This document shows positions 17,119-59,352 of a DNA stretch of 64,000 nt, one piece after another. Where the stretch lies: assembly GCA_964016885.1 (NCBI GenBank), contig OZ024743.1:353462001-353526000 (forward strand), in the 5' to 3' direction. The notes under the pieces were generated by a model. It was not told the DNA's origin. It worked only from the letters and a program-made list of their open reading frames with translations, and searched no databases. The position numbers and the translations under genes were made by a program. Source of the stretch: Eledone cirrhosa. Its lineage: Eukaryota. How positions within the stretch are numbered: position 1 is the first letter of the stretch; every line of letters begins with the position of its first letter.

Positions 17119-17316
17119 TGAAAAGAGTCATGATCCCGACGGCTGAGCTCCAGCCGTTTCGACAGCTAGATCCAGCTGTTTCTGATCTAGCTGTCGAAAC
17201 GGCCGGAGCTCAGTCGCCGGGATCATGACTCTTTTCATATTACCCACTCTACTACCCTAAGTATCGAGTACTCTGGTGCGTTAAGGTCCATCTGGTATCT
17301 TACAACACCTTCTCTG
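17119..17316 (+). mobile_element. Fold-back element family copy 1 (hairpin + conserved tail)
   Basis: Arms of ~54 bp, then TATTACCCACTCTACTACCCTAAGTAT; homologs at 50360, 53750 and 59174. Confidence 0.85.
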
Positions 17317-17488
17317 TATATATATATATATATATCAGTGGCGAAGGGTAACCTGGAAAGCAGGGCATGCAGTCTAATCGCCATGTGTTCGCATTGCAAA
17401 TGATCAAGTTTGCTAGGTTGAAAAATACTAATTTCAAATAATACGGTTTGCCTGTCTCGATTTAAAATAATAAATCAATAAAAATAAT

Positions 17489-17577
17489 TGTTTCTACTAT
17501 AGGCACAAGGCCAGCAATTACCCAGTACATTACTGGTACTTTATTTTATCGACCCCGGAAGGATGAAAGGCAAAGTT
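17489..17577 (-). mobile_element. Truncated tRNA-SINE
   Basis: TSD AAATCAATAAAAATAAT. Confidence 0.85.
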
Positions 17578-18129
17578 AAATCAATAAAAATAATAAACCT
17601 ATATTGGCAATGACCATGATACCCGGACAAATTTTAAATTTGTTTCACAACAATTAAGTGAAAGTTACTATTCCTGTGCTCTTCTGCGGGTATCCAGAAA
17701 TTGGTAAGTTTCACTCCAAAATACTTAAGAAGACTGAGAGAAATGTGTTGTTGAACGCACATGTGTCACAGCGCCTAGCTCGTCCCATACTCGTGCCGCT
17801 AAAAATAGGTGCCGGTTTTATGGGACTAAAATTAGTTGTACGTATGGAGCCGAGAATATTATATATAGAGTTATAAACTCAAAATAGTCTTTTACAATTA
17901 AATACCTCAAAGAAGGGAATATTTTTAAGCTGTGTAATACATATATATATATTTCTGAGCCGTGTAATACACACACACATATATATATATATACATATAT
18001 ATACATACATACATATATATATATATATATATATATATATATATATATATATATATATATATATATATATATATATATATATATATATATATATATAAAA
18101 TAAAATAAAATAAATAAGTCAAATGATTA

Positions 18130-18549
18130 AAATTTGGCTTCGTTGGAGCTAGAACCGAAAAAGTGGAAATTTGAGTCTAAAAGTGGTATTTTTGAATATT
18201 TAAGCGGCTGCCATGCTGTCCCTGAACAACAAATGCAAAATATAAAGCCATTACAGGATGTGCAATGATAAATTCTAATTTGTTTTAAAATTTGAACGAA
18301 ATCGGTGAGCTAGAGTAAAAAATCTTATTTTTCGATACCTAAAAAAAGGTGACCCCCCTAGCGATTTTTATTTGCAGAATGACCCTGGAATAAAAAAAAA
18401 ACGATACGCTGATATATAGAAAACACTTCCCGATGACTAATCTATGAGCCTGTAAAGTTTCATGAAAATCGGTCGTAAGATGTAGGCCCCTATAGGTAAT
18501 ACACAGACACACAGACACACACACATACTTAATTTTATATATATACAGA
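18130..18549 (-). mobile_element. Non-autonomous Helitron 5' portion
   Basis: A|TCTGTATATAT start, (GT)n, CCGATTTTCATGAAACTT; reverse complement of 18600-18880. Confidence 0.65.
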
Positions 18550-18599
18550 TATACACATACACACACACACACACATACATACACAAACACACACGCACA

Positions 18600-19614
18600 T
18601 GTTTTCTATATATCAGCGTATCGTTTTTTTTTTTTTTTTTTTATTCCAGGGTCATTCTGCAGATAAAAATCGCTAGGGGGTCACCTTTTTTTAGGTATCG
18701 AAAAATAAGATTTTTGACTCTAGCTCCCACATTTTGCCTCCGATTTCGTTCAAATTTAAAAAAAACACTAGAATTTATCATTGCACATCCTGTATTGGCT
18801 TTATATTTTGCATTTGTTGTTCAGGGACGGCGTAGCAGCCGCTTAAATATTCAAAAATACCACTTTTTCGGTTCTAGCTCCCACATTAATCAACCTACTT
18901 TGTTCAAATTTTACACTACGCTAGATCTGATTATTTCACGTCTTAAAGTGGCTTTACATTTTGGATTTTTTGTTCAGGAACGGCGTGGCAGCCGCTTAAA
19001 TATTCGAAAATACCACCTTTTCGCTCAAATTTCCGCCTTTTCGGCACTAGCTCCCACATTTGCCATCGCGTTCACAATTGTGACATTGCCATCTGTCAAT
19101 TTCTATCCTCAGATAGAACTTTCCATTGCACATCTTCTAATTGCTTCACATTTCGTATTTGTTGGTCAGGGACGGCGTGGCAGCCACTTCAATCTTTAAT
19201 ACGACTTCTCCTAAATTCTCAGCATTTGCAGATTAACTTTTCACCATTTGCTGCAAATGATGTTTATGATTCTATAATTCGATACAATTATCCAGTTGAT
19301 GGTCAAAGGCAAAACGATGGCCACTGACGTCGTCTGAGCTTTTAGTTGTGTATTTGAGAATTCATCGGTTTCCAATCAAGTAGCGTGAGGAAATTTGGCT
19401 TAGTGTTAGAGGTCATTACCTCCCTCCCCCAGCATGCCTCTTCGTCAGTCACCCGCGTTTCTCAGTGATAGAGGTCATCACCCCCCCCCCCCCCCCCACA
19501 TGGCCTGTGTGTGGCCATAGATGAGTCATCGAGAAGCAGTCGTTAAGATCAACACGTTTTCATCAAAGCAGATATTATTTTACCTACCCAGGCAACACTG
19601 GGTACTGCTGCTAG
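18600..19614 (+). mobile_element. Non-autonomous Helitron, 3' end intact
   Basis: Hairpin CCCAG-GCAACA-CTGGG then CTAG|T; internal ~130-180-bp subrepeats. Confidence 0.75.
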
Positions 19615-56640: not shown

Positions 56641-57007
56641 ATATATATATATATTATAATATATAGCTCTGATTATTTAATTTATTAACTCTTCATTGAG
56701 CCACAAGGTGACCCGTTGCAAAACACACACACACACACACACACACACACACACACACACACACACACACACACACATATATATATATATATATATGTAT
56801 GTAAACCTTTATATGTAATAATCTCCCGTAAGGTTGAGATAAAATTTTGGCTGTATTGTGCTGCGCTTTCTAGCAAAAAGCCACCAGCCGTAAGCAACTA
56901 TTCACATCCTTTCTAACCTGACCGCTGCTACGTCACGATTCTTAGCCATTTTTTTATGTATTCTTGGCGCGATCACTTTGGAAAACTTATTCTCTAAATT
57001 TGAGCTA

Positions 57008-57085
57008 ACTTCCTGAAGAGTCCGGAGCTCTAGGTGTCCAATACTATCGGATATCTTAAAATGCGGACGAAACCATGGTAGAGGT
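57008..57085 (+). ncRNA. Type I hammerhead, canonical core, long stem II
   Basis: ACTTC-CTGAAGA-GTCCG-(39 nt)-CGGAC-GAAA-CCATGG-TA-GAGGT. Confidence 0.8.
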
Positions 57086-57835
57086 AACTAAATATGTTCA
57101 CTTTTCTCCTAGCTTATTTTACACCTAATTCTGTTTAATTGACTTATATCTGGGCGATTCATACACGCTGTCGAAATACTCGATAAATATTCCGTCGCAA
57201 CTGACGCGAAGGGCTGCTTTCGGTTATTTGTCGGAGATTTCTTCATAGAAGCCTTTATTCTTATAGCTTGGTTTGATCGATTTTTTATATGGTTAATTAT
57301 GCTAATTGGGAGAGGAAATGGTACATATTTTATCTGGTGATTCTATAGACATGTTTTATGATATATATATATATATATATATATATATATATATATATAT
57401 ATATATATATATATATATATATATATATATATATATATATGAATATATATATAACTCTCTCGTCCACTAAATATTAACACTTCTAATATTTAATACTGCC
57501 GGCACTAGTATTGAGCACATGCATACGCTATTTGGCAAATAACTACATGTATCACCTATCCAAAGCCAAGGCAGCATGGTGATATAATAGTACATATAAT
57601 GTTACGGTCTCGAATATCTTAAGATATTATGACCTCTTGCCAGGCTTATAATGTCGCTAGAAATAGCTGCCTAAAGACCGTCTGGGACAACTCGACAAAT
57701 TCTAACTCCCCCGAAGACTATGGCGGTTCTTAAATTATTAGTAATTCCAATAATGGTTCCTCTCCATAGGTATATATATATATATATATATATATATATA
57801 TATATATATATATATATATATATATATATATATAT

Positions 57836-59138
57836 TGGTAAAAGGAAAAGAAAATGCTGACAAATTGTTCCCAGTGAAAAATAGTTTAATTATGAATAAG
57901 CAAAAATAAGTAATAAGTATTGGTTAGTATTCAGTTTTAGTTTTAAGTAATTTACCGGTTGCGCATTTCTAATGCTTTTCAAAAATAATTTTGAGATAGA
58001 GCGCCCGTGGTGTTTGCTCTAATCTGATTAGTTTTGGAAATTCTACCTGTTTTATGTGAAAAAAGTGGCTCCAGAGGTATTAAAATAAGTTTCGCGCCAA
58101 TTCGTGTTGCAAAAATTCTTGTGGTCAAAACAATTTTGATTGGTCGGTAGAGGACACGTGAATGTTAAAAATTGATTTTGCGCCAAATGTAGGTTTGTCA
58201 AAGAGTGTCCTTTTTCGCCTGATTGAGAAGTCACTGAAAAATAAGTCTTTTAAGACAAATATGTGTGTGTGTAGTAAAGAGGTTCATTGTTGTGATAATG
58301 GTCAGTAGGGATGTGCGTGTGTGAATTGCAGTCATGTTGAAAGGTCAACAGTTCAGGTGTCTATTAAGACAAATGTGTGTGTGTGTGTGTGTGTGTGTGT
58401 GTGTGTGTGTGTGTGTAGCAGAGTAATTCGTGGTAGAGGGATCGGTCGGTAGGAATGTGTCTGTCCGTGTGTGGGGGATATTTTAACATGTTGAAAGATA
58501 TATTTCAGCTCTTGGCTTATACGGAGAAGTGTGTGTGTGTATATGTCTCTTTGTATGTTAGTGTACGCGTATGTATGTATGTGTGTATATATGTCTGTGT
58601 GTGTGTACATATGTGTGTATGTGTGTATGTGGGGGGAGGGGGGACCAGTATTTTTGTGATACTGGTAAAAATGGTGTACATTATTCGATATTTTCAGCAA
58701 AAACGATTCTCTCAAGAGAACATCAAAAACCTTAATAATAAAAGGTGTGAAATGATATATAGTATTGTCATAACACCAAGGTGTGTGTGAGTGTGTCCAG
58801 ATTGTACGTACTGCAAGGGGAATCCATTAGGCCCTGCCGTATTGGAATACTTGTGTACAAATATGTATGTGCCCATCAGTGTGCAATGTATGTGTGCGTA
58901 TATGTATATGTGTGTGTCGGCACGTTTATATCTATAGACATCAAAAGGTATGCAAATTTGTGTATATTTGTGTTGCACCATAGAACATGTGTGTTTACGT
59001 ATGTCATTGTGTTTATATGTGGATAGAGATGTATGCAGGATGTATGCTGATGTAGGTATGTATGTTGACGTGTGTATGTTGTGGGTTCGTCTTAGGGAGA
59101 AGTGTTTAGACGGGGTCCGTATTTGTTAATAAAGTGAC
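57836..59138 (-). mobile_element. PLE 3' remnant related to the 47640 element
   Basis: HFINKYGPRLN end; TTTCGCGCCA block; U3-A8 hammerhead with GAAA>GCAA at 57950-57986. Confidence 0.7.
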
Positions 59139-59173
59139 ATATATATATATATATATATATATATATATATATA

Positions 59174-59352
59174 TAGGAAAATGTTTGACCCCCGACGGCA
59201 GAGCCCAAGCCATTTCGATGGCTAAATAGCCGTCGAAACACTTGAGCTCTGCCGTCGGGGTAAAAAATGTTCCTATTACCCACTCTACTACCCTAAGTAT
59301 TGAGTACTCTGGTGAGTTATGGTCCATCTGGTTCCTTACCACACCTCCTTCG
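59174..59352 (+). mobile_element. Fold-back family copy 4
   Basis: Homolog of 17119-17316. Confidence 0.85.

What the first reader, a model, noticed from the sequence alone, without database searches (positions are those of the whole stretch)
17119..59352. Fold-back family carrying the 3' half of a hammerhead, with arms co-varying within each copy
Seen: four copies (17119, 50360, 53750, 59174) all start at (TA)n. The arm consensus reads GAAA-CGGCTG..CAGCCG-TC-GGG (stem III, GUC site, stem I strand), but CTGANGA is absent. Copy-specific changes appear in both arms: ATGATCCC/GGGATCAT in copy 1, GGCAGAGC/GCTCTGCC in copy 4, GACGGCTAATT/AATTAGCCGTC in copy 3; the loops differ. Inference: either one arm is re-copied from the other at each insertion (self-priming at stem II), or pairing is selected. 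A trans-cleaved half-ribozyme parasite of PLEs is a speculative option.
Basis: partly seen in the sequence, partly recalled or inferred. Interest (0 to 1): 0.72.

Follow-up and report, generated by a model that had tools for sequence, protein, structure and literature searches.

The report
Twin-primed stubs of a Penelope retrotransposon
These hairpins are stub-sized, head-to-head insertions of a Penelope-type jumping gene whose full-length parent carries an atypical hammerhead-ribozyme motif, and their two arms were likely made as two separately primed DNA copies that ran off the start of the element's RNA, which would make thousands of such stubs a natural record of how these elements insert.

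Summary
The hairpins are real; at least 16,594 exact short ones lie in the genome. They are the shortest insertions of a Hydra-like Penelope element (intact 717-aa RT/GIY-YIG-type ORF, 3.53-kb tandem units). A hammerhead-bearing parent exists, but its core reads TTGANAA (U3:A8 variant), so CTGANGA searches miss it.

Arms co-vary within copies (63 of 66 concordant), mostly through subfamily markers, with no G·U bias, so pairing is not selected. Both outer ends sit at two fixed TAT sites, and one arm carries a ~76-nt tail (20 of 20). Either arm can be the longer (28 vs 25), which simple self-priming forbids. Inner ends pile up in loop II at TTAGT with an untemplated C (930 vs 243 T), likely the RNA 5' end; a smaller peak lies at the predicted cut site. 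Copy 3 is a chimera with a second family.

Best reading: twin target-primed reverse transcription. The architecture is known for Penelope elements; I did not find this mechanism in print. The scan already reached this reading on other DNA of this genome. No RNA-level test was possible.

The parts
17119..17173 (-). Copy 1, inverted tail-less arm (subfamily B); outer end at start site 1 (TTCA|TA), inner end about +6
   Evidence: parent loop II
17174..17183 (.). Copy 1, 10-nt junction spacer
17184..17237 (+). Copy 1, sense arm from about +7: 3' strand of stem II, GAAA, stem III, cut triplet (decayed to GCC), stem I 3' strand
17238..17316 (+). Copy 1, tail (between start sites 1 and 2; 5' UTR of the parent)
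50362..50432 (-). Copy 2, inverted tail-less arm, the LONGER arm (reaches about -11 of the subfamily B parent)
   Evidence: L094 against L093, L120
50434..50481 (+). Copy 2, sense arm from +13
50482..50560 (+). Copy 2, tail
53752..53803 (-). Copy 3, inverted tail-less arm (AATT subfamily), inner end about +7
53804..53820 (+). Copy 3, short sense stub (+5 to +21)
53821..53922 (+). Copy 3, right side: tail-less arm of a second (TA)n-inserting family with a CTGACGA hammerhead motif (core 53832-53838, GAAAC at 53875)
   Evidence: (1,269 candidates, 40 scored)
59176..59224 (-). Copy 4, inverted tail-less arm (subfamily A), inner end about +11
59225..59273 (+). Copy 4, sense arm from about +9
59274..59353 (+). 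Copy 4, tail ending at start site 2 (CGT|TAT)
17038..17118 (.). (TA)n target tract left of copy 1; similar tracts flank the other copies

Best explanation
The hairpins are the shortest insertions of an autonomous Hydra-like Penelope retroelement, likely made when both ends of a cut (TA)n tract each prime a DNA copy of the element's RNA and the two copies, having likely run off the RNA's 5' end, are joined head to head. Shown: the parent is a 3.53-kb unit with an intact 717-aa ORF, and each stub matches its first ~60 nt (tail-less arm) or ~135 nt (tail arm), counted from +1, the A of TTAGT in hammerhead loop II. Outer ends lie at two fixed TAT sites, one used by each arm. Inner ends are independent of each other and pile up at -8..+8, with a smaller peak at +42. 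Inferred: the two TAT sites are reverse-transcription start sites that pair with the (TA)n primer; +1 is the capped start of the RNA, which is why the 5' half of the ribozyme is missing; +42 ends come from RNA cut by the U3:A8 hammerhead; the two cDNA ends are joined blunt or by 1-2 nt of microhomology; arms agree because both are read from the same RNA or the same source copy.
For: Parent: longer copies continue into stem I + TTGANAA + stem II (44 of 50 TTGANAA, 6 CTGANAA; 1,466 exact hits), then a 3' UTR and ORF. Intact ORF in tandem arrays with LRWR, DKT, YRDD, CxCx5C, YIG, CxxC and CxH. The tail runs on into the 5' UTR and ATG. The same head-to-head, one-tail layout occurs at sizes from 0.1 to over 4 kb. 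One tail per stub: 20 of 20 picked without using the tail; 106 of 113 overall. In 100 tail-anchored hits from the first 19 Mb of C1, 54 of 87 measurable tail arms end at -8..+8; among 60 short head-to-head copies the tail arm is longer in 28, the tail-less arm in 25, equal in 7, and the tail-less arm reaches +2 or beyond in 24. 3,017 loci have both arms reaching +1. The base after +1 is an untemplated C 930 times against T 243 times. Cut site: 426 tail arms start at +42, against 182, 198 and 93 at +41, +43 and +44; by eye, 66 of 100 listed +41 hits are really +42/+42 joins and 68 of 100 listed +43 hits are single-G deletions. Chimeras with other families: copy 3, L386, L031, L050. Published PAc protein cuts and extends both strands and starts at two internal sites that bound the tail (PMC11167929).
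Against: No RNA data were obtained, so the start site, cap and cleavage are inferred from DNA alone. The wall is broad (-8..+8), and subfamily B seems to stop near -11 instead (about 20 of 30 loci, read by eye, chosen for reaching -7); window copy 2 is one of these. Many extra-C junctions could be short templated slips (CAG, CCAG), and reverse transcriptases add C without a cap (recalled). +42 is also the base of stem III, where a polymerase could stall. PAc ribozyme mutants did not change insertion in vitro, and no reads began at its cut site. Only 2 of 4 parental ribozymes folded better than shuffles (z -2.75, -2.21, +0.59, -0.30), and Rfam gave no match. Pfam and PDB sequence searches gave no hit for the intact ORF. 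Chimeras could be later insertions with deletion. 13 of 100 tail hits could not be measured.
Confidence: 0.72

Rival explanations
1. Self-priming: one cDNA primed at the tail folds back on itself and copies the second arm, which stops at the TAT of site 1. Later deletions at the palindrome centre blur the junction.
For: It predicts one tail per insertion, arm concordance and shared private changes such as copy 1's. It was proposed for Penelope palindromes in PMC3846280 (passages). Short snap-back stubs do occur (copy 3, L386).
Against: The copied arm cannot reach further than the template arm or reach the wall itself. Yet the tail-less arm is longer in 25 of 60, and reaches +2 or beyond while being the longer in 17. 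3,017 loci have both arms at +1, many with the extra C on both sides. The natural loop II is not retained.
Confidence: 0.12
2. Twin priming is right, but the inner ends mark a polymerase stall at RNA structure (after stem II, before stem III) rather than RNA ends. Arm agreement is helped by conversion between arms after insertion.
For: +42 is the base of stem III. The wall is broad and differs in subfamily B. Six shared singleton changes in 81 copies, and copy 1, fit conversion or a divergent source.
Against: The main peak lies inside an A/T-rich loop, past the stem strand. An untemplated C, and by eye oligo-A, follow +1. In the second family the short arms end about 9 nt upstream of the core, not in stem II (6 of 12 loci). 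Several copies that read through into the 5' UTR also begin near +1 (L339, L340, L341, L344).
Confidence: 0.11
3. A selected hairpin RNA or half-ribozyme parasite that is cut in trans by the parent and spreads as a unit.
For: Very high copy number. Some junction sequences recur. Non-autonomous retrozymes derive from Penelope repeats (bioRxiv 10.64898/2026.07.22.740005, part 1 of 5).
Against: No G·U preference (51 vs 57). Junctions differ from copy to copy. The perfect fold-back would bury GAAA and GUC. The same layout extends over coding sequence up to 4 kb.
Confidence: 0.03
4. A MITE or Helentron-like DNA transposon with a terminal hairpin that targets TA.
For: Small size, fixed outer ends, TA context.
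Against: Continuous with a reverse-transcriptase ORF, variably truncated, and the tail sits on either arm.
Confidence: 0.01

Closest known systems
Hydra clade of Penelope-like elements (Craig et al. 2021, PMC8557442; passages and supplement part 2 of 59 read)
   Same: RT followed by a C-terminal GIY-YIG-type domain, RW motif, DKT, CxCx5C linker, CxxC and CxH, insertion in (TA)n, hammerhead near the 3' end.
   Different: Every Hydra ribozyme listed in File S2 has a CTGANGA core, short loop II and short stem III; Hydra-1_oBim's motif is a different sequence. This family has TTGANAA, a 33-nt loop II and a 5-bp stem III with a palindromic GAGCTC loop. The unit is 3.53 kb against generally under 3 kb. 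No tree was built.
Inverted 5'-truncated copy plus optional tail of endonuclease-bearing Penelope elements (PMC3846280 passages; PMC8557442 Fig. 2 legend; PMC2377424 passages)
   Same: Head-to-head inverted repeat, tail at one end only, partial tandems.
   Different: The tail is ~76 nt rather than 30-40. Stubs dominate the family. The published explanation is self-priming on an antisense template, which the arm-length symmetry here contradicts.
PAc (Poseidon, Anolis) in vitro mechanism (PMC11167929, parts 1-2 of 4 read)
   Same: Two internal start sites bound the tail; both DNA strands are cut and extended; AT-rich target; predicted dimer.
   Different: That paper reports no homology between start site and target, whereas both starts here sit at TAT. 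The parts read do not treat inverted ends or a stop at the RNA 5' end.
U3-A8 hammerhead variant of Schistosoma Cercyon elements (PMC4209133, parts 1-2 of 4 read)
   Same: Same core covariation in a Penelope repeat.
   Different: Those are minimal motifs without a stable helix III; another clade and phylum.
L1 twin priming (search listing only; mechanism recalled)
   Same: Both target ends prime cDNA, giving an inversion.
   Different: In L1 the two cDNAs cover adjacent, non-overlapping parts. Here both cover the same ~60 nt from fixed start sites.

Membership tests
Hydra-clade PLE | Single ORF, RT then C-terminal GIY-YIG-type endonuclease | tested here: met
   717-aa ORF with YRDD at 348 and YIG at 606. 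Atlas look-alikes carry HTH_animal, GIY-YIG and RVT_1. Pfam: none on the intact ORF, GIY-YIG E 0.069 on another copy.
Hydra-clade PLE | RWK-type motif present, GxKF/Y absent, DKG changed to DKT | tested here: met
   LRWR at 36, no GxKF/Y, DKT at 117
Hydra-clade PLE | CxCX5C linker; CxxC and CxH in the endonuclease | tested here: met
   CNCPDRSIC at 572, CNLC at 670, CKH at 698
Hydra-clade PLE | CCHH motif absent | tested here: inconclusive
   Motif scan only; not aligned to reference endonucleases
Hydra-clade PLE | Insertion in (TA)n | tested here: met
Hydra-clade PLE | Canonical hammerhead (CUGANGA) | tested here: not met
   Core TTGANAA in 44 of 50, CTGANAA in 6 of 50. Filed as a Hydra-like variant for this reason.
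Hydra-clade PLE | Placement in the Hydra clade by RT tree | not tested
EN+ PLE insertion architecture | Inverted truncated copy head to head, partial tandems | tested here: met
EN+ PLE insertion architecture | Tail at one end only | tested here: met
   20 of 20; 106 of 113; length ~76 nt, longer than the usual 30-40
Type I hammerhead ribozyme (parent) | Three stems around the core, with 3-8 pair, G10.1-C11.1, GAAA and NUH | tested here: met
   95.3% of 400 cells paired, three stem II pairs with changes on both sides (one event between subfamilies, counted many times), slid controls 29-54% (20 hand-picked copies). Six CTGANAA copies break the 3-8 pair.
Type I hammerhead ribozyme (parent) | Self-cleavage after C17 | not testable with these tools
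   Indirect only: excess of arms starting at +42
Non-LTR retrozyme | Tandem units, each with a complete hammerhead, no ORF | tested here: not met
   Stubs are single, inverted and lack the core; the tandem units carry an ORF
MITE | Inverted repeats at both termini, fixed length | tested here: not met
   One arm carries an unpaired tail; inner lengths vary

The most novel reading that the evidence does not exclude
Penelope elements insert by a coordinated two-primer reaction. A dimer uses both ends of the cut (TA)n, one at each fixed start site near the RNA's capped 5' end, and makes two short 'strong-stop' cDNAs. Failure to go further gives the stubs. A jump from the strong-stop cDNA to the ribozyme-cut 3' end of the RNA, across the ~41-nt overlap between +1 and the cut site, would build pseudo-LTRs and tandem arrays much as retroviral strand transfer does. 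The U3:A8 ribozyme would cut in vivo, with the promoter start inside its own loop II, so that only the downstream copy is a whole ribozyme.
Probability: 0.25. Interest if true: 0.8.

Novelty: new variant of a known kind. Interest (0 to 1): 0.5.

Why it matters
How Penelope elements make their inverted and tandem ends, and what their hammerheads do, are stated open questions (PMC8557442, PMC2377424, PMC11167929, passages read). A young family with intact ORFs and tens of thousands of stubs gives base-level statistics on start sites, stop sites and junctions, and gives exact predictions for the existing in vitro assay. It also shows that CTGANGA-only searches miss ribozymes in this clade, and that such stubs could be mislabelled as MITEs or microRNA hairpins (one search gave sub-threshold miRNA hits at copy 1). 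The stubs themselves are probably dead ends, and the scan has noted this reading several times in the same genome.

Tried and rejected
CTGANGA parent search: 53 hits; the 30 loci read were chance junction products or joins to other families. Window-wide repeat finder was swamped by microsatellites. Rfam: no hammerhead among the 150 rows shown of 363 in the window, and none on the parent. Pfam and PDB sequence searches on the intact ORF: nothing. Sequencing runs: no RNA holder listed. Contigs of X1, X2 and X5 showed a depth step between bins 1685-1721 and 1722-1758 and loose (TA)n ends at 1786 and 1866, but contig depth is no copy number, so it was not counted as evidence. Searches were first passes with loose end-calling, an off-by-one spacer or arms running into TA; they were replaced. 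Three '-7' ends are probably +1 ends with a chance match. The idea that stem II forms the fold-back was dropped because the natural 5' strand of stem II lies 33 nt upstream of most junctions. Literature searches for a published twin-priming or strong-stop model for Penelope elements listed none; the library lacks most subscription papers, and bioRxiv supplements were not seen.
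Full report
Observation. Copies 1, 2 and 4 are a hairpin followed by an unpaired ~76-nt tail and more (TA)n. Copy 3 has one arm and a 17-nt stub, then switches to a different repeat. The window lies in a 3.0-Gb genome, G000, where the family is abundant: 16,594 exact short fold-backs on the forward strand, 49,454 exact arms and 36,798 exact tails, with zero hits in each reversed control.

The parent. A search for CTGANGA upstream gave 53 hits; the 30 read were junction accidents or joins to other families. 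Walking upstream through longer copies showed the real 5' half: ACCCC, then TTGANAA, then G and a 9-bp stem II closing a 33-nt loop. Of 50 distinct full motifs, 44 read TTGA[C/A/T]AA and 6 read CTGANAA; TTGAGAA is seen in the young tandem units. So position 7 varies while U3:A8 replaces C3:G8, a covariation published for Schistosoma Penelope elements (PMC4209133). On 20 hand-picked copies the hammerhead fold is 95.3% paired, with three stem II pairs changed on both sides between subfamilies. Rfam does not recognise it, and only 2 of 4 copies fold better than shuffles.

The element. Further upstream lies an ORF. Tandem arrays of 3.53-kb units hold an intact 717-aa frame; two neighbouring units differ at 1 of 3,531 bases, so the family is young. 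It has the protein marks that Craig et al. give for the Hydra clade, although Pfam and PDB searches gave no hit and no tree was built. The Hydra ribozymes in that paper's File S2 all have CTGANGA and differ from this one. The tail runs on into the 5' UTR and start codon in 355 places. The stubs are therefore the front end of the unit. Their two outer ends, TTCC|TAT and CGT|TAT, are internal positions that both read TAT. Head-to-head copies with one tail occur at all sizes up to more than 4 kb, the known Penelope layout.

Why the arms co-vary. I extracted 113 fold-backs with both arms from all loci held; this is not a random sample. In the 106 with one tail, arms differ by 2.2 positions within a copy and 6.2 between copies. 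Of the 66 copies whose two arms both carry a common genotype, 63 agree, against 15% expected at random. Mismatches are G·U 51, A·C 57, other 63. The tree agrees. In 81 of the 106 copies scored against the nearest common arm, single-arm changes number 127 and shared ones 24, of which 18 recur across copies. Co-variation is thus mostly shared descent from one template, followed by neutral decay. Copy 1's two shared changes are near-private and fit a divergent source copy or conversion between arms.

One cDNA or two. I took the first 100 tail matches on C1; two pairs belong to one insertion each, and 13 could not be measured. With +1 at the A of TTAGT in loop II, 24 of 87 tail arms end between +42 and +9, 54 end at -8..+8 and 9 run further. 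Among 60 short head-to-head copies the tail arm is longer in 28, the tail-less arm in 25, and they are equal in 7; 33 of the 60 junctions are blunt or overlap by 1-2 nt. A fold-back copy cannot outrun its template, so two cDNAs are indicated. The two primings are coordinated: 20 of 20 stubs chosen without the tail have exactly one tail. This matches the PAc results of two start sites bounding the tail and extension of both strands. Joins to other families (copy 3, L386, L031, L050) suggest two RNAs are sometimes used, but later insertion with deletion is not excluded.

What stops the cDNA. 3,017 loci have both arms reaching +1. The next base is C 930 times and T 243 times, neither templated; by eye most T cases are the other arm's oligo-A. 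An added C is what run-off at a capped end gives (recalled), though short templated slips could inflate it. TTAGT resembles an initiator, with TATTTA about 31 nt upstream in subfamilies A and C (recalled motifs; alignment). The Drosophila virilis transcript likewise starts inside the repeat. In the second family the short arms end just upstream of the core, so the stop does not follow the ribozyme fold. Subfamily B seems to stop near -11 (by eye, selected set). A smaller peak sits at the predicted cut: 426 arms start at +42, against 182, 198 and 93 at the neighbouring positions, most of the first two being misassigned. A stall at the base of stem III is the alternative.

Verdict. The feature is real, and the kind of structure is known. 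New relative to the papers I could search are a Hydra-like family with a U3:A8 hammerhead, and genomic statistics that favour coordinated twin priming with run-off at the RNA 5' end. All RNA-level steps are inferred. I reached this reading before (notes). That call showed that the scan had already recorded the same reading at several other places in this genome; those notes are unreviewed and are not independent support.

Papers seen: PMC11167929 parts 1-2 of 4; PMC4209133 parts 1-2 of 4; PMC8557442 passages and supplement part 2 of 59; PMC3846280, PMC2377424 and PMC13282606 passages; bioRxiv 10.64898/2026.07.22.740005 part 1 of 5, supplements closed; the rest as search listings only.

Noticed in passing
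window 13661-15527 (-), flanks to about 12680 and 15860: A related Penelope-like ORF, 50-52% identical to the parent protein and in two frames, with a repeated ~200-nt segment at both ends.
   Followed up: partly
window 12510-12650: A fold-back plus tail between (TA)n tracts from yet another family, same layout.
   Followed up: no
window 53821-53922; L376-L386: Second family with a CTGACGA hammerhead motif, a ~75-nt tail and head-to-head stubs whose short arms end about 9 nt upstream of the core.
   Followed up: partly
L031, L034, L041, L050, L060, L386: A third family (CTGAAGAGGTCACAG hammerhead motif) joined directly to arms of this family or of the second family.
   Followed up: no
window about 55174 (-) and 52144 (-): Two further short CTGANGA...GAAA hammerhead-like motifs.
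   Followed up: no
window 321-27322: 13 ARAGORN tRNA calls, 12 of them tRNA-Trp(CCA), in a dispersed cluster; several are followed by a repeated CTGATGA-containing segment.
   Followed up: no
window 48985-49812 (-): Weak match (22% identity, E 1e-5) to the parent ORF, probably another Penelope fragment.
   Followed up: no
L368-L374 (G000 C1, C2): Near-identical head-to-tail arrays of 3 to 5 or more units, most with intact ORFs, which implies more-than-unit-length copying or recent tandem growth.
   Followed up: partly
L144, L149, L150, L155, L162, L249, L329: A subfamily with core CTGAGAA, which breaks the 3-8 pair yet amplified; the ribozyme may be dispensable.
   Followed up: no
window 32500-36600 and 40000-42050: Long degenerate microsatellite-like arrays with strong strand skew.
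   Followed up: no
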